From: Bacilli bacterium
Lineage (GTDB): Bacteria > Bacillota_I > Bacilli_A > RFN20 > CAG-826
DNA: 64,000 nt
Assembly (NCBI GenBank): GCA_045226015.1
Contig: JBGVBY010000021.1
Location: 17,485-81,484 of the forward strand
Reading direction: 5' to 3'
Shown: positions 21,854 through 25,317 of the stretch, in pieces
How positions within the stretch are numbered: position 1 is the first letter of the stretch
How the letters are laid out: each line of letters starts with the position of its first letter
Notes under the pieces: generated by a model
The model's input: the letters and a program-made list of their open reading frames with translations, nothing else
The model's database searches: none
Told to the model about the DNA's origin: nothing
Position numbers and translations under genes: made by a program

Positions 21854-21879
21854 GAATAAAAAATCGAATTTTCTCACTA

Positions 21880-22175
21880 TTTAAATAGTAAGGAGATGTT
21901 TTAAACATTTGCTACAAAACAAACAGGAGGAAACATGATAAAAAGAAACCGAAACCGAAAAGCAATATTTGAAAGCAGATGTAAAAAGCCTTTATTGAAA
22001 GGAAAATTTTACCGAGTGTTAGACTCTACTAACAAGAATCATTCAAAAATAATAAATAAAAAATGAGCAAAAGAATTATCAGGCAGACTTATAGAGAACA
22101 ATAAAAAGGAATAGATAGTTTGGTTTTTGCCGTATGTGGTTCCTCAAAAACACGAAATCCATAACAAAAAGGAGA
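21880..22175 (+). pseudogene. Orphan degenerate copy A of the comFA 5' end (RBS + zinc-finger region + Walker-A region)
   Basis: Collinear nucleotide similarity to 23510-23810. ...taaggagatgtt... corresponds to aaaggagatgtt. agcagatgtaaaaagcctttattgaaagg corresponds to cgtagatgtatttcatttaaaggcg. gaattatcaggcagacttatagagaacaataaaaagg corresponds to gaattatcagacaagctagttgagaactataaaaaagg. atagatagtttggtttttgccgtatgtggttcc (IDSLVFAVCGS) corresponds to the comFA Walker A. Frame is broken by stops. The 44-aa ORF 21936-22070 is part of this fragment. Confidence 0.75.
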
Positions 22176-22179
22176 AAAT

Positions 22180-22521
22180 ATGAAAGATAAATTTAGATAC
22201 AACAAGAAAAGAAAACACTATTCATACATTTTTAAAATTAAAAATGGTTATTGCTCTAACATCTTACTTACAACCCAAACTGAATCTATTCATAAAAAAC
22301 ATGGACAAACAAAAATAGTGAGGAACATCAAATTGTATAGACATCCTAACTCTAGGAAAACTAGTGTAATCGTTTTTATTTATAATCACCCACCATACAT
22401 AGATGCAAAAGAGTCTTTTGATGATAAAAGGTTAGATTGGAAATGGGATATAAATGATAAACGCAATGTTAAGAGGCTTAAGAATTACAAGAAGTACAAA
22501 AAATATTTTGAAAAGAAATAA
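22180..22521 (+). CDS. Small basic hypothetical protein X1 (113 aa, Lys-rich C-terminus), paralog of X2
   Basis: AAAAGGAG RBS. Shares its start region (aaatccataacaaaaaggagRaaatATGAAA) and weak protein similarity with X2. No recognisable domain. Confidence 0.45.
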   Translation: MKDKFRYNKKRKHYSYIFKIKNGYCSNILLTTQTESIHKKHGQTKIVRNIKLYRHPNSRKTSVIVFIYNHPPYIDAKESFDDKRLDWKWDINDKRNVKRLKNYKKYKKYFEKK

Positions 22522-22584
22522 AAAAATCGGTGATGAACTCCAGCTAACGCCAGGTATATCTAACCGACATGAATATTTAATCAC

Positions 22585-22692
22585 ATGAAAGGTGGCGACG
22601 CAATATAGAAAACTATAAGAAGGGGGTAGACAGTTTAGTTTTTGTAGTGTGTGGTTCCCCAAAGACACTAAATCCATAACAAAAAGGAGGAA
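22585..22692 (+). pseudogene. Orphan degenerate copy B of the comFA 5' end (internally deleted)
   Basis: aaaggtggcgacgcaatatagaaaactataagaagggggtagacagtttagtttttgtagtgtgtggttcc matches comFA 23530-23560 joined to 23755-23795; the zinc-finger segment is deleted. Encodes ..VDSLVFVVCGS.. out of context. Confidence 0.7.
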
Positions 22693-22694
22693 AT

Positions 22695-23012
22695 ATGAAA
22701 AAGTTTAGAAGACATTTTAGGATTTATTTCAAAAACAACCATCCTGCATATATTGTTGATGAAGAAGGAAATACCTACGTATTTCATAGAGTAACCCATT
22801 CAAAAACATCAGGAGGTAGAAAGAACTGGATAATTAAAAAGAACCCCATCAAAGGTGATAATAAAACGATGAATATTGTTAAAAAAGAAGAAAGAGACAA
22901 AAAAGCCAGATTCAGTATGTTTGAAATTGAATTAAAAAATGGTGTAGATGTCTCATATCCAGACATAAAACTGACAAGGGAACTGTTAAAGAAAAAGAAA
23001 AACAAGGGCTAG
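22695..23012 (+). CDS. Small basic hypothetical protein X2 (105 aa), paralog of X1
   Basis: AAAAGGAGG RBS. MKKFRRHFRIYFKNNHPAYIVDEEGNTYVFHRVTHSKTSGG.. No recognisable domain. Lys-rich C-terminal tail. Confidence 0.45.
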   Translation: MKKFRRHFRIYFKNNHPAYIVDEEGNTYVFHRVTHSKTSGGRKNWIIKKNPIKGDNKTMNIVKKEERDKKARFSMFEIELKNGVDVSYPDIKLTRELLKKKKNKG

Positions 23013-23539
23013 CCTTGTTATTAGAGTTAAATATCTTTGCTTTTCATAACTCTATTCTTGAAAACCAAGTCGCAATATGCCAAGCATACCCTTGCTTGAC
23101 GCAAAGCACATATTACTTTTCACCAATTACATAGGGGTGATTTTGATGAACTGGACTCCTTTGACACACCTGTTATTTGCTGAAGGTGGAACTCTGTGGT
23201 CATTAGCCACTAGTTGCCTATTTCGATCGTGTCTGGTATCCGGAATTACGCATACAAGTCCTAACTTTGCACCCGGTAAATTATTCAGGGAGGTTTAGAC
23301 CATTGAATCAACGATTCATAATTGGCTGTTTAATTGAGTTTTAATCAAAACTAAGTATCAGCTTCCTTAGTACAGCTCAATTAATATAACAAACGTTTGA
23401 TAAAAATGAAACAAGAAATAAAAAAGTCCATTAAGGACTTAGTGCATCGGGCAGATCGAGCTGCCAATTGGTGCGCGGTTGTCTGAGCCTATTCAGCTCT
23501 GCGTACAACTTGTGAATATATTAAATCAAAAGAAAGGAG

Positions 23540-24704
23540 ATGTTGCAATATAGAAACTTATAAATGTCCTGTTTGTGGCAATACAGATATTCATTCGATC
23601 GGAACGCTCAACGGCAAGCCTTATTGTCGTAGATGTATTTCATTTAAAGGCGAAGAGGTAGAACACAAACAATCTTATCCAAAGAAAGCACCTATACATC
23701 TTGAATATGAGTTATCACCTGAACAGAAAGAATTATCAGACAAGCTAGTTGAGAACTATAAAAAAGGTATAGATAGTTTAGTTTTTGCGGTGTGTGGTTC
23801 AGGAAAGACAGAGATAATACTCAAAGTCGTTCAATATGTACTTAATTGTGGAGAAAAAGTTGCGTTTGCGCTTCCAAGAAGAGATGTATGCATAGAAATA
23901 AATAATAGGTTAAAAGAAATTTTTATTAAAAATACAATTGCATGTGTATATGGAGGTCATACTAAAAGAAAAATTGCCGATATCGTTGTTTTAACAACAC
24001 ACCAATTATACCGTTATAAACGTTACTTCAATTTAATAATCTTAGATGAGATAGATGCGTTCCCTTTTAAAGATGATCCAGTATTAAATTCTATGTTTTT
24101 TGGAGCTTTAAACGGTCATTATATTATGATGAGTGCCACTCCTCCAAAAGAATTAATTAATTACTTTTCAAAAGAAGGAAAAGACATATTAAAACTAGAC
24201 ATTAGATTTCATAGACATCCTTTACCAGTCCCAAATATTAGATCAAATAATACTATCTTCTTATTTCTTATTCTATTAAAGGAATTAAGAAGATTTATCA
24301 AAGAGAAAAAACCAGTATTTATCTTTGCTCCAACAATAGAAGAATGTGAGAAATTGTATCGATATATATCACTATTTATCAGAGGAGGAAATTATGTACA
24401 TTCAAAACGAATTAATAGATCTGAAATCATAAATTCATTTAGACTTGGAGCATACAAATATTTAGTTACTACATCAGTATTAGAAAGGGGCGTAACAGTC
24501 AGAAATTTACAGGTAATTATCCACAAAAGTGACAGTTTTGTCTATGATTCTGGTACTTTGGTGCAAATTTCAGGAAGAGTGGGAAGAAAGAAAGATGCAC
24601 CAGAAGGAGAAGTAATTTTTCTAGCAAACAAAATAACAAAGGAGATGAGAGATGCAGTTAGTGAAATTGAAGACAAAAACAAATCATTGCAAGATGTGTT
24701 TTAA
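23540..24704 (+). CDS. comFA: Competence helicase ComFA (DEAD/DEAH-box, N-terminal zinc finger); start codon unresolved
   Basis: Conserved frame 23487-24704 encodes ..ETYKCPVCGNTDIH...GKPYCRRCISF (zinc finger), VFAVCGSGKTE (motif I), ILDEIDAFP (motif II, DEID) and TTSVLERGVT...QISGRVGR (motif VI). This frame has no in-frame ATG/GTG/TTG before GTG 23790. The ATG at 23540 (RBS AAAGGAG) is in the -1 frame and stops after 7 codons. Confidence 0.7.
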
Positions 24705-25317
24705 AGAGATAAATGACAACTCTTTTTACAACATAATTCACAAAGATAATTTACTATGTGAATCGTGTTTTTCAACTCTAAAGGCGAGGTTTATAAAATT
24801 CAAAATCAACAATATAGAAGCATTATCAATTTATGAATATGATGAAACAATCAAGAAACTGATTTATACATTCAAGGGATGTTACGACTATGAGTTAAAA
24901 GACATGTTCTTAAATCGATATAAAACATATCTAAAACTTAAATATTGGGGATATAGTCTAGTTACTATTCCTTCTAGTGATGTAGACGATCAAAAAAGAG
25001 GGTTCAATCACGTTAAAGAAATGTTCTCATTGCTTAAAATGAACAGACTAGAAGTATTAGAAAAATGTTCGCGGGAAAAACAATCATCAAAATGCAGTAA
25101 AGATAGGTTAAAAATTGATGAGATATTAATCTCTAAAAATATCGAACAAGTTAAAAATAAGAAAATCCTAATTGTAGATGATATTTATACGACTGGGGCA
25201 ACAATGTTTAAAGCAATACAACTAATAAAAAAGGGGTGTCCTAAAAAGATTAAGGTCTTAGTGGTAGCAAAGACTATTGAACTAGACAAACGAAATAACA
25301 AAAATGAACGTTCCTAA
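24652..25317 (+). CDS. comFC: ComFC (competence protein, phosphoribosyltransferase fold with N-terminal zinc finger)
   Basis: CKMCFKEI...CESCF zinc ribbon. PRTase motif KILIVDDIYTTGATM. Overlaps the comFA 3' end. Confidence 0.85.
   Translation: MQLVKLKTKTNHCKMCFKEINDNSFYNIIHKDNLLCESCFSTLKARFIKFKINNIEALSIYEYDETIKKLIYTFKGCYDYELKDMFLNRYKTYLKLKYWGYSLVTIPSSDVDDQKRGFNHVKEMFSLLKMNRLEVLEKCSREKQSSKCSKDRLKIDEILISKNIEQVKNKKILIVDDIYTTGATMFKAIQLIKKGCPKKIKVLVVAKTIELDKRNNKNERS

What the first reader, a model, noticed from the sequence alone, without database searches (positions are those of the whole stretch)
23484..23560. comFA reading frame lacks an in-frame canonical start codon
The conserved ComFA frame opens after TGA (23484-23486). 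It contains no ATG, GTG or TTG until GTG 23790, which lies inside the Walker A motif and well downstream of the zinc-finger codons. The only ATG behind the AAAGGAG RBS (23540) is in the -1 frame and terminates after 7 codons (MLQYRNL*). Three explanations are possible. First, translation requires a +1 shift or re-initiation. Second, a rare ATA (23550) or ATT (23520) start is used. Third, the gene carries a 1-nt indel: a recent inactivating mutation or an assembly error. This is relevant to whether the strain is naturally competent.
Basis: seen in the sequence. Interest (0 to 1): 0.5.

Follow-up and report, generated by a model that had tools for sequence, protein, structure and literature searches.

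The report
comFA starts at a conserved ATA
The DNA-uptake gene comFA really has no ATG/GTG/TTG start here. It most likely starts at a weak ATA codion shared by many related rumen bacteria, and that whole 5' end of the gene is a repeated module in a previously undescribed array of small gene cassettes.

Summary
After TGA 23484 the ComFA frame has no ATG/GTG/TTG until GTG 23790, and ATG 23540 is out of frame (MLQYRNL*).

The best explanation is initiation at ATA 23550. It lies 10 nt after a 9-nt Shine-Dalgarno, at the codon where orthologues have ATG (MESYKCP...).
- 13 of 25 species-level orthologues carry ATA there.
- In 9 of them a stop lies 2-5 codons upstream, and ATA is the only possible start.
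- Metagenomes add full-length genes with ATA (11), ATC (2) and ATG (3).
- The 79 codons after ATA evolve with dN/dS 0.05.

An indel or assembly error, a +1 frameshift and a GTG 23790 start are rejected. The database protein identical to this gene is a truncated 304-aa call.

Unexpectedly, promoter, SD, start codon and the first ~90 codons form a repeated module. Relics of it alternate with small cargo genes between rpiB and comFA (21870-23800), each ending exactly at the Walker-A codons. Some cargo genes have a MazF-like fold or are YhcG nucleases.

Cassettes are more similar between species than secA, and distant relatives lack them. No integrase was found, so the insertion mechanism is unresolved.

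The parts
23484..23486 (+). In-frame TGA that closes the ComFA frame upstream
   Evidence: Sequence read and translation.
23531..23539 (+). Extended Shine-Dalgarno AGAAAGGAG
   Evidence: Sequence. The same GGAG + 10 nt spacing to the start codon is seen in both ATA-type and ATG-type orthologues.
23540..23563 (+). Out-of-frame mini-ORF ATG..TAA (MLQYRNL*); probably incidental
   Evidence: Sequence. The ATG has 0 nt of spacing to the SD and is absent in L011, L014, L065 and L066.
23550..23552 (+). ATA, the inferred initiation codon of comFA
   Evidence: It is homologous to the ATG of the MESYKCP-type orthologues. It is the only ATG/GTG/TTG/CTG/ATH codon between the upstream stop and the Zn finger in 9 orthologues. 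ATA, ATC and ATG alternate at this codon in metagenomes.
23550..24704 (+). comFA coding sequence as re-called here (384 aa): a 4-Cys zinc finger (CPVC...CRRC) followed by a DEAD/Helicase_C core
   Evidence: Pfam DEAD, Helicase_C and ResIII. Homologues are 380-400 aa. dN/dS is 0.046 for the 79 codons after ATA.
23781..23810 (+). Walker-A codons. Position 23800|23801 is homologous to the point where every upstream comFA relic breaks off.
   Evidence: the repeat finder family D1 and the junction table.
23388..23512 (+). Leader module upstream of the SD. It is shared with other arrays and includes a relic of the 3' end of an F4-type cargo gene.
   Evidence: blastn: 88-93% identity to L009, L024, L034, L010, L004 and L018.
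23152..23321 (-). Conserved non-coding segment holding the cow-rumen-1 RNA motif (RF02946, 23217-23279). It is convergent with the F1 cargo gene.
   Evidence: Rfam 56.3 bits against a gathering score of 53.4. The same motif in the same orientation occurs in L016, L020, L023 and L006, and the same segment occurs in L050.
22695..23012 (+). Cargo gene F1 (105 aa, basic, no known family)
   Evidence: ORF. 545 homologous clusters without a Pfam domain. No Pfam, PHROG or PADLOC hit.
22659..22694 (+). Conserved junction segment (CCAAAGACACTAAATCCATAACAAAAAGGAGG) with the SD of the cargo gene
   Evidence: Pattern search: 2 matches in the window, 0 expected by chance. Consensus across loci.
22573..22658 (+). 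comFA relic 2. It keeps the leader, the SD, ATA 22605 and the first 4 codons. An in-frame internal deletion then joins them to the last 13 codons, ending ...VVCGS.
   Evidence: the repeat finder D3 and D1 and sequence.
22180..22521 (+). Cargo gene F7 (113 aa, basic, no known family)
   Evidence: ORF. A homologue occupies a cassette in L020. No family hit.
22144..22179 (+). Junction segment with the SD of cargo F7
   Evidence: Pattern search and the repeat finder D1/D2.
22067..22143 (+). comFA relic 1: only the last ~25 codons before the Walker-A break, with a premature in-frame stop
   Evidence: the repeat finder D4 and D1 and blastn to comFA 5' ends of many loci.
21870..22066 (+). Oldest end of the array: a leader/SD remnant, a junction-like segment (21915-21942) and a truncated F6-type cargo ORF (21935-22066, 43 aa)
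   Evidence: the repeat finder D2, blastn to L017, and comparison with the F6 proteins of L017 and L018.
24652..25317 (+). comFC (ComF-family phosphoribosyltransferase-like), overlapping the end of comFA
   Evidence: TIGR00201 comF at 3.9e-21, which is below its curated cut-off, and Pfam Pribosyltran.

Best explanation
comFA is intact and is translated from ATA 23550, a weak near-cognate start codon read by initiator tRNA. The codon sits 10 nt downstream of a strong, extended Shine-Dalgarno (AGAAAGGAG). The product would be (M)ETYKCPVCGN..., 384 aa.

**Shown**
- ATA occupies the codon where orthologues have ATG, with the same SD spacing.
- In many orthologues no other start is possible.
- The codons behind it are under strong purifying selection.
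- ATA, ATC and ATG alternate at this one position in full-length genes.

**Inferred**
- ATA is decoded as the start.
- It lowers ComFA output to a small fraction of what ATG would give (a few to some tens of percent).

**Context (shown)**
The leader, SD, start codon and first ~90 codons form a module that is repeated as decaying relics between rpiB and comFA. Each relic ends exactly at ...CGS of the Walker-A motif. Each is followed by a conserved ~30-nt junction with an SD, then a small cargo gene.

**Context (inferred)**
These are cassettes of the form [junction - cargo - leader - comFA 5' end] that have entered one after another at the Walker-A codon. Each left the previous 5' end behind and supplied a new one. 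On this reading, the cassette that arrived last dictates the promoter, the SD and the ATA-or-ATG start of comFA.

The recombination mechanism is unknown. It could be a site-specific recombinase acting in trans, or homologous recombination after transformation.
For: **Start codon**
- Many homologues begin MESYKCP. Others were called from spurious upstream starts and read ...NIETYKCP, or were truncated to MCGNTD or MLNGK. About 25 of 120 cluster representatives are affected.
- Of 25 full-length orthologues from species-representative genomes, 13 have ATA and 12 have ATG at their start. The three ATG genes with the same ME(S/T)YK N-terminus (L004, L006, L010) have it at the same codon with the same GGAG + 10 nt spacing.
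- In 9 ATA loci an in-frame stop lies 2 or 5 codons upstream. ATA is then the only ATG/GTG/TTG/CTG/ATH codon before the first Cys.
- Among the 13 ATA genes, the 79 codons after ATA have median dN/dS 0.046 and dS about 1.2. All 13 are full length.
- A metagenome scan in the same sequence context found ATA 16, ATC 5 and ATG 4. Full-length genes: 11 ATA, 2 ATC, 3 ATG.
- The window segment 23518-23560 is 100% identical to L017 and 93-96% identical to seven other independent assemblies over 40-45 nt of 23516-23560.
- AUA starts with extended SDs have been validated in another member of the Bacilli. In S. aureus, infC, ccpN and citZ use AUA and give about 10-30% of the AUG level (PMC13009471). In E. 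coli AUA gives 1-2% of AUG (bioRxiv 10.1101/063800).

**Array**
- Repeat families in the window.
- Identical junction architecture in more than 20 loci, with up to 4 zinc-finger-containing copies of the 5' end in L008.
- F2 cargo is 91-97% identical between genomes whose secA regions are 77-84% identical and whose comFA bodies are 62-68% identical.
- Distant relatives have rpiB directly followed by an ATG-started comFA, which represents the empty site.
Against: - There is no direct evidence of initiation at ATA, such as ribosome profiling or N-terminal peptides.
- The 13 ATA genes are not independent. The 5' module moves horizontally, so the ATA state may have spread as one haplotype.
- 11 of the 13 ATA genes also carry an out-of-frame ATG 7 or 10 nt upstream. 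Its co-occurrence is unexplained.
- ATG variants in the same context exist, so ATA is tolerated rather than strictly required.
- For the array, no recombinase, no circular form and no gain/loss polymorphism between near-identical strains was found. Contigs with an identical ComFA had identical upstream DNA.
- Insertion at the Walker-A codon is inferred from the junctions only.
Confidence: 0.85

Rival explanations
1. A 1-nt indel, either a sequencing or assembly error or a recent inactivating mutation, has displaced an original ATG (23540) from the ComFA frame.
For: ATG 23540 follows the AAAGGAG directly and is one base out of frame.
Against: - The same sequence, 100% identical over 23518-23560 in L017 and 93-96% in seven further assemblies, has the same frame relation.
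- ATG-type orthologues start at the codon homologous to ATA, not to ATG 23540.
- ATG 23540 has 0 nt of spacing to the SD.
- The gene is full length, and its 5' part has dN/dS 0.05.
Confidence: 0.02
2. Translation starts at ATG 23540 and shifts +1 (prfB-like) at UUA UAA A (23558-23564) into the ComFA frame, giving MLQYRNLKCPVCGN....
For: An out-of-frame ATG 7 or 10 nt upstream of ATA, with a stop at the same TAA, is present in 11 of 13 ATA-type genes and in none of the ATG-type MESYK genes.
Against: - L011 and L014, plus L065 in the metagenome set, have ATA and a full-length gene but no ATG, GTG or TTG in any frame between the SD and ATA.
- SD-to-ATG spacing is 0-3 nt.
- tRNA-Leu on UUA cannot re-pair on UAU, and no SD-like stimulator lies 3 nt upstream of the shift site. 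This rests on established knowledge of the prfB site.
- Residues E, Y/F and K between ATA and the first Cys are conserved in the ComFA frame in both ATA and ATG genes.
Confidence: 0.03
3. The gene is expressed as the database call has it, from GTG 23790, giving a 304-aa ComFA without the zinc finger. On this reading the upstream 100 codons are untranslated.
For: GTG 23790 is the first canonical start, and the database holds this 304-aa call (P0003).
Against: - GTG 23790 lies inside the Walker-A stretch (AVCGSGKT) and has no SD.
- The upstream 77-79 codons are the most constrained part of the gene: 92% aa identity against 62.5% for the body, with equal synonymous saturation.
- Homologues are 380-400 aa.
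Confidence: 0.03
4. Another in-frame near-cognate codon upstream of the SD is the start: ATT 23520 or CTG 23499.
For: Both are in frame after TGA 23484.
Against: - Neither has an SD upstream.
- In 9 of 13 ATA orthologues and most metagenome genes, an in-frame stop lies between these positions and ATA.
- The amino acids they would add (YIKSKERRCCN) are the translation of the -10-like box and the SD.
Confidence: 0.02
5. ATA-type comFA is effectively silent: the last cassette knocked it down. It is kept intact only because the 5' module is selected elsewhere, for example as a recombination arm or as a partner of the cargo proteins.
For: The 5' module travels with selfish-looking cassettes. Mobile elements that disable competence genes are known, which is my own knowledge of the chromosomal-curing argument.
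Against: All 13 ATA genes and 11 further metagenome genes keep about 300 downstream codons open over divergences with saturated synonymous sites. This would not be expected without translation of the whole gene.
Confidence: 0.05

Closest known systems
Conserved non-canonical AUA/AUU start codons with strong SDs (E. coli infC AUU; S. aureus infC, ccpN and citZ AUA)
   Same: A near-cognate AUH codon sits at the position of the start. An extended SD is present. The feature is conserved across relatives. Expression is expected to be reduced but real (PMC13009471; 10.1101/063800).
   Different: - The gene is a late competence ATPase.
- ATA, ATC and ATG alternate between lineages.
- The start codon lies on a module that is exchanged horizontally.
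- There is no experimental mapping here.
Integrative elements that carry a replacement end of their target gene (phage 21 and e14 in icd; islands in tRNA genes, with tandem accretion). Recalled from my own knowledge, not tested.
   Same: The target gene stays intact because the incoming DNA brings its own copy of the gene end. The displaced ends remain as direct-repeat relics, and successive insertions give tandem arrays.
   Different: - The units are only 0.5-1.2 kb with one cargo gene and no integrase.
- The replaced part is the 5' end, including promoter, SD and start codon.
- The break point is in the Walker-A codons of comFA.
Integron cassette arrays and integrase-less attC clusters (CALINs)
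   Same: Tandem single-gene cassettes lie in one orientation, each with its own SD. They appear to sit downstream of a resident promoter, although no promoter or transcript was mapped here. Cargo is diverse and mostly of unknown function, with some candidate defence genes.
   Different: - There is no IntI nearby.
- No attC-like long imperfect palindromes were seen.
- The repeat between cassettes is a fragment of a host gene.
- The hosts are Bacilli, where integrons are essentially unknown (my own knowledge).
Orphan toxin/immunity modules downstream of cdiA or rhs genes. Recalled from my own knowledge.
   Same: Displaced gene-end fragments accumulate next to the full gene, each broken at the same conserved motif, with small accessory genes between them.
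   Different: Those are 3' ends with immunity genes. Here the fragments are 5' ends lying upstream, and the main gene is a housekeeping-type competence ATPase.
MazF/Kid/PemK and CptN (type III) endoribonuclease toxins
   Different: - There is no sequence-level membership (no Pfam hit; no PDB profile hit).
- No adjacent protein antitoxin gene is present.
- Both termini are very basic.
- The two intact cargo genes of this window (F1, F7) could not be tied to this fold.

Membership tests
Non-canonical (AUH) bacterial start codon | A near-cognate codon at the position homologous to the start codon of orthologues | tested here: met
   ATA aligns with the ATG of MESYKCP-type genes. ATA, ATC and ATG alternate at this position.
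Non-canonical (AUH) bacterial start codon | A Shine-Dalgarno sequence at functional spacing | tested here: met
   AGAAAGGAG 23531-23539 with GGAG + 10 nt spacing, identical to that of ATG-type orthologues.
Non-canonical (AUH) bacterial start codon | No canonical start available, and downstream codons under purifying selection | tested here: met
   A stop lies 2-5 codons upstream in 9 orthologues. dN/dS is 0.046.
Non-canonical (AUH) bacterial start codon | Ribosome initiation and fMet at that codon | not testable with these tools
   Needs Ribo-Ret, toeprinting or N-terminal proteomics.
Programmed +1 frameshift (prfB type) | A conserved zero-frame start upstream, plus a slippery codon, stop and SD stimulator | tested here: not met
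   The upstream ATG is absent in L011, L014 and L065. The UUA UAA site lacks re-pairing potential and has no SD 3 nt upstream.
ComFA | A DEAD-box-like helicase core with an N-terminal 4-Cys zinc finger | tested here: met
   Pfam DEAD, Helicase_C and ResIII. CPVC...CRRC in the translation. One homologue is named ComFA by JGI (P0061).
ComFA | Followed by comFC | tested here: met
   TIGR00201 comF at 3.9e-21 (below the curated cut-off) and Pfam Pribosyltran for 24652-25317.
ComFA | Role in DNA uptake | not testable with these tools
   Needs genetics in a cultured relative.
Integron | An IntI tyrosine recombinase next to the array | tested here: not met
   The neighbours are dnaX, prfA, prmC, tsaC and rpiB on one side, and comFC, secA, prfB, yitT and uvrB on the other.
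Integron | attC imperfect palindromes between cassettes | tested here: not met
   Only short AT-rich inverted repeats and a terminator hairpin were found. The inter-cassette repeat is a comFA fragment.
Gene-end-replacing integrative element | Direct repeats of the target-gene end flanking each unit, all broken at one point | tested here: met
   The junction ...TGYGG(A/T)TC | NCC AAAGACAC... occurs in more than 20 loci.
Gene-end-replacing integrative element | An element-encoded integrase | tested here: not met
   Cargo genes are 98-135 aa proteins of unknown family, or a YhcG nuclease.
Gene-end-replacing integrative element | Horizontal mobility | tested here: met
   F2 cassettes are 91-97% identical against 77-84% for secA. 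Outgroups show an empty site.
MazF/PemK toxin (cargo F3-F6) | Fold | tested here: met
MazF/PemK toxin (cargo F3-F6) | Sequence family membership and a cognate antitoxin | tested here: not met
   No Pfam or PADLOC hit. No PDB profile hit. No antitoxin-like ORF in the cassettes.
cow-rumen-1 RNA (RF02946) | Covariance-model score above the gathering threshold | tested here: met
   56.3 bits against 53.4 at 23217-23279, minus strand.

The most novel reading that the evidence does not exclude
The ATA-started 5' end of comFA may be the conserved arm of an undescribed class of integrase-less mini-cassettes in rumen Bacilli.

Each cassette is 0.5-1.2 kb. It enters at the Walker-A codon of comFA and brings a MazF-fold, YhcG-nuclease or unknown cargo gene. 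The cargo would be expressed from the displaced comFA promoter. The cassette also brings a replacement promoter, SD, start codon and zinc-finger domain for comFA.

Cassette turnover would then reset how strongly the DNA-uptake motor is made (ATA/ATC against ATG). The zinc-finger domain is five times more constrained than the helicase body. This might be because it must work with any host body, or because it interacts with the cargo proteins as a target or antitoxin-like partner.
Probability: 0.4. Interest if true: 0.8.

Novelty: new variant of a known kind. Interest (0 to 1): 0.55.

Why it matters
**Practical.** Gene callers mis-start this gene family. About a fifth of the database homologues are truncated or wrongly extended, including the 304-aa database call identical to this gene. 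A reader could wrongly score the strain as comFA-defective.

**Biological.**
- A conserved ATA/ATC start on a late competence gene points to deliberate low-level synthesis of the DNA-uptake ATPase.
- The start codon, SD and promoter sit on a horizontally exchanged module. Expression of a core competence gene may therefore be set by whichever small cassette arrived last.
- If the cassette system is real, it is a new way for small genes to accumulate in Gram-positive genomes without disrupting the target gene. It also ties toxin-fold and defence-type genes to the transformation machinery.

Tried and rejected
- **Rfam on the leader.** There is no riboswitch or leader RNA on the plus strand. The only hit is cow-rumen-1 on the minus strand.
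- **Promoter and terminator scan.** No convincing sigma-70 promoter lies directly upstream of the SD, so the promoter remains undefined.
- **Cargo protein families.** Pfam, PHROGs, PADLOC and NCBIfam gave nothing for the small cargo proteins, apart from YhcG/PDC-S02 for the 330-aa cargo.
- **Viral and plasmid carriers.** IMG/VR, INPHARED and PLSDB held no F1 cargo, and IMG/VR held no comFA 5' fragment, so no phage or plasmid carrier was found.
- **AF2 of cargo F1.** pLDDT was 41, which is unusable.
- **Profile comparisons between cargo families.** F1 and F7 against F3/F4 were not significant. F2 against F1 was weak, with probability 40%.
- **PDB sequence-profile search for F3-F6.** Nothing was found.
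- **Strain-level polymorphism.** Thirteen contigs with an identical ComFA (P0001) all had identical upstream DNA. P0003 itself is not on record.
- **Literature.** Searches for comFA cassettes and for cow-rumen-1 found nothing relevant.
- **Genome-wide loose start-codon use.** This was rejected for this window, because comFA is the single outlier.
Full report
**1. Observation**

- TGA lies at 23484-23486, and the ComFA frame follows it.
- There is no ATG, GTG or TTG in frame until GTG 23790, which lies inside the Walker-A stretch AVCGSGKT (23787-23810).
- The Shine-Dalgarno AGAAAGGAG occupies 23531-23539.
- ATG 23540 is in another frame and reads MLQYRNL*, ending at TAA 23561.
- ATA 23550 and ATT 23520 are in frame.

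Among the 49 stop-to-stop ORFs of at least 150 codons in the window, comFA is the only one with more than 36 codons between the upstream stop and the first canonical start. It has 101. The feature is therefore real and exceptional for this genome segment.

The gene has DEAD, Helicase_C and ResIII domains and a CPVC...CRRC zinc finger. It is followed by a ComF-family gene. The database holds a 304-aa product identical to this gene, called from GTG 23790 (P0003).

**2. What orthologues show**

The closest homologues come from rumen metagenome-assembled Bacilli, many labelled Erysipelotrichaceae. Many begin MESYKCP(V/I)CGN.

Others read ...KERRCCNIETYKCPVCGN after a spurious upstream start, or are truncated to MCGNTD... 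or MLNGK.... About 25 of 120 cluster representatives are affected.

At the DNA level, 25 full-length orthologues from species-representative genomes split into 13 with ATA and 12 with ATG at their start.
- The three ATG genes with the same ME(S/T)YK N-terminus (L004, L006, L010) have ATG exactly where the others have ATA, 5 codons before the first Cys and GGAG + 10 nt downstream of the SD; the other nine have different N-terminal leaders, with ATG 6-8 codons before the first Cys.
- In 9 of the 13 ATA genes, an in-frame stop lies 2 or 5 codons upstream.
- In those 9, ATA is the only ATG/GTG/TTG/CTG/ATH codon before the zinc finger.

A scan of JGI metagenomes with the surrounding context, leaving the third base free, gave ATA 16, ATC 5 and ATG 4. 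Among full-length genes it gave 11 ATA, 2 ATC and 3 ATG. Variation confined to AU-A/C/G at one codon directly behind an SD is what a start codon read by initiator tRNA would show.

**3. Is the region translated?**

Among the 13 ATA-type genes, the 79 codons after ATA have median dN/dS 0.046 with dS about 1.2. All 13 are open for more than 380 codons. This excludes a dead gene and a start at GTG 23790.

**4. Rival explanations**

*Assembly error or recent indel.* Window segment 23518-23560 is 100% identical to L017 and 93-96% identical to seven other independent assemblies over 40-45 nt of 23516-23560.

*+1 frameshift from ATG 23540.*
- The ATG abuts the SD.
- It is missing in L011, L014 and L065, which still have ATA and full-length genes.
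- UUA UAA A has none of the features of the prfB site.
- E, Y/F and K between ATA and the first Cys are conserved in the ComFA frame in both ATA and ATG genes.
- One point remains unexplained: an out-of-frame ATG 7 or 10 nt upstream accompanies ATA in 11 of 13 genes. I take this as haplotype linkage.

*ATT 23520 or CTG 23499.* Both lie upstream of the SD. In most orthologues a stop separates them from the gene.

**5. Mechanism and precedent**

- AUA, AUC, AUU and CUG initiate at 1-2% of AUG in E. coli reporters (bioRxiv 10.1101/063800).
- In S. aureus, AUA starts of infC, ccpN and citZ were mapped by Ribo-Ret. All have extended SDs and give about 10-30% of AUG (PMC13009471).

The comFA site fits this pattern, with a 9-nt SD. 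I infer a weak but real start that holds ComFA synthesis low. This step has not been shown experimentally.

**6. The unexpected context**

The leader, SD, start codon and first ~90 codons of comFA recur upstream, both in this window and in orthologous loci.

In L008, four zinc-finger-containing copies plus partial relics lie in tandem, 690-830 bp apart, separated by small ORFs.

Every relic ends at the same point...GTNTGYGG(A/T)TC. It is followed by NCC-AAAGACACGAAATCCATAACAGAAAGGAGG, then 4-8 nt, then the ATG of a cargo gene. The functional gene continues ...TC(A/T)GGNAA(A/G)AC, that is GSGKT.

The window contains the following:

| Coordinates | Element |
|---|---|
| 21870-22066 | Oldest remnant, with a truncated F6-type ORF |
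| 22067-22143 | comFA relic 1 |
| 22144-22179 | Junction |
| 22180-22521 | Cargo F7 |
| 22573-22658 | comFA relic 2, again with ATA at 22605 and an in-frame internal deletion |
| 22659-22694 | Junction |
| 22695-23012 | Cargo F1 |
| 23152-23321 | Minus-strand non-coding segment |
| 23388-23512 | Leader module |
| from 23531 | SD, ATA and comFA |

This map rests.

Relics decay by deletions and stops, and roughly half are disrupted. Cargo genes are often intact.

**7. Mobility**

- F2 cargo genes are 91-97% identical among L004, L008, L018 and L034. The secA regions of L004, L008 and L018 are 77-84% identical, and their comFA bodies 62-68% (L034 holds neither).
- More distant relatives, with ComFA 47-50% identical, have rpiB followed directly by an ATG-started comFA. 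That is the empty site.
- The array always lies in prfA-prmC-tsaC-rpiB-[array]-comFA-comFC-secA. No recombinase lies within 6 kb.
- One F1 cassette sits elsewhere, between hypA and another gene. It carries its non-coding segment, its leader and the first 11 nt of comFA (ATAGAAAACTA).
- No phage or plasmid carrier was found.

I infer sequential entry of [junction - cargo - leader - comFA 5' end] units at the Walker-A codon. Each entry displaced the previous 5' end. The recombination mechanism is open. It could be a recombinase acting in trans, or homologous recombination after transformation, using the 5' comFA copies as arms.

**8. Cargo**

- Families F3-F6 form one family. An AF2 model reached pLDDT 87 and pTM 0.79.
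- There is no sequence-level membership and no adjacent antitoxin.
- A 330-aa cargo is a YhcG/DUF1016 PDDEXK nuclease, which is the PADLOC candidate PDC-S02.
- The two intact cargo genes of this window, F1 and F7, remain of unknown fold.

**9. An unexplained asymmetry**

Across 300 pairs of full-length genes, the zinc-finger part and the helicase body differ sharply in amino-acid conservation, although both are equally saturated at synonymous sites.

| Region | aa identity | pN | pS |
|---|---|---|---|
| Zinc-finger part (77 codons) | 92% | 0.052 | 0.68 |
| Helicase body | 62.5% | 0.25 | 0.70 |

The part of ComFA that travels on cassettes is therefore about five times more constrained at the protein level. 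Recent homogenisation does not explain this.

**10. Verdict**

- The ATA-start reading is supported, with confidence 0.85. The indel and frameshift readings are rejected.
- Taken alone, the start codon is a new member of a known kind.
- The cassette architecture that carries it is, as far as I could find, undescribed. It resembles gene-end-replacing integrative elements and integron arrays but meets the defining features of neither.

Noticed in passing
window 21870-23800; L001-L024, L034-L036, L051-L058: Tandem array between rpiB and comFA. Relics of the comFA 5' end alternate with small cargo genes. Every relic is broken at the Walker-A codon and followed by a conserved ~30-nt junction carrying an SD.
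   Followed up: yes
window 23217-23279 (-); L016 98-160, L020 1989-2051, L023 1390-1451, L006 2670-2731 (all -): The orphan Rfam motif cow-rumen-1 (RF02946) lies inside these comFA-upstream arrays. It is always antisense to comFA. In the window, L020 and L023 it lies downstream of and convergent with an F1 cargo gene. In the window the two share a terminator-like hairpin (23001-23019). No ORF follows it on the minus strand. An RNA partner of F1, such as an antitoxin-like RNA, is a guess.
   Followed up: partly
L050 4960-5715: An F1 cassette with the same cow-rumen-1-like non-coding segment (not scanned with Rfam), its leader, SD and the first 11 nt of comFA (ATAGAAAACTA) sits at an unrelated locus, between hypA and a PF01171 gene. 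This suggests the cassette can land elsewhere.
   Followed up: partly
window 23565-23795 versus 23796-24704, and 24 orthologues: The zinc-finger N-terminal part of ComFA is 92% identical in amino acids across species, while the helicase body is 62.5% identical. Synonymous saturation is equal in both (pS 0.68 and 0.70). The reason is unknown.
   Followed up: partly
L006 1960-2283, L010 2507-2881, L017 2562-2921, L008 284-688; window 21935-22066 (truncated): Cargo families F3-F6 have a confidently predicted MazF/Kid/CptN-like fold. They have very basic termini, no Pfam membership and no neighbouring antitoxin gene.
   Followed up: yes
L011 1850-, L013 577-, L015 2010-3002, L022 2010-3002, L023 2007-: Some cassettes carry a 330-aa YhcG/DUF1016 PDDEXK nuclease (PADLOC candidate defence PDC-S02). 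Its stop overlaps the comFA start.
   Followed up: partly
window 23540-23566 and orthologues: An out-of-frame ATG 7 or 10 nt upstream of ATA accompanies 11 of 13 ATA-type genes and none of the ATG-type MESYK genes. It opens a 6-7-codon mini-ORF that ends at a TAA immediately followed by another ATG. Its significance is unknown.
   Followed up: partly
L034, L035, L036 (contig ends): Several MAGs hold a second contig that ends inside such an array. The repeats evidently break short-read assemblies, so array lengths are probably underestimated.
   Followed up: no
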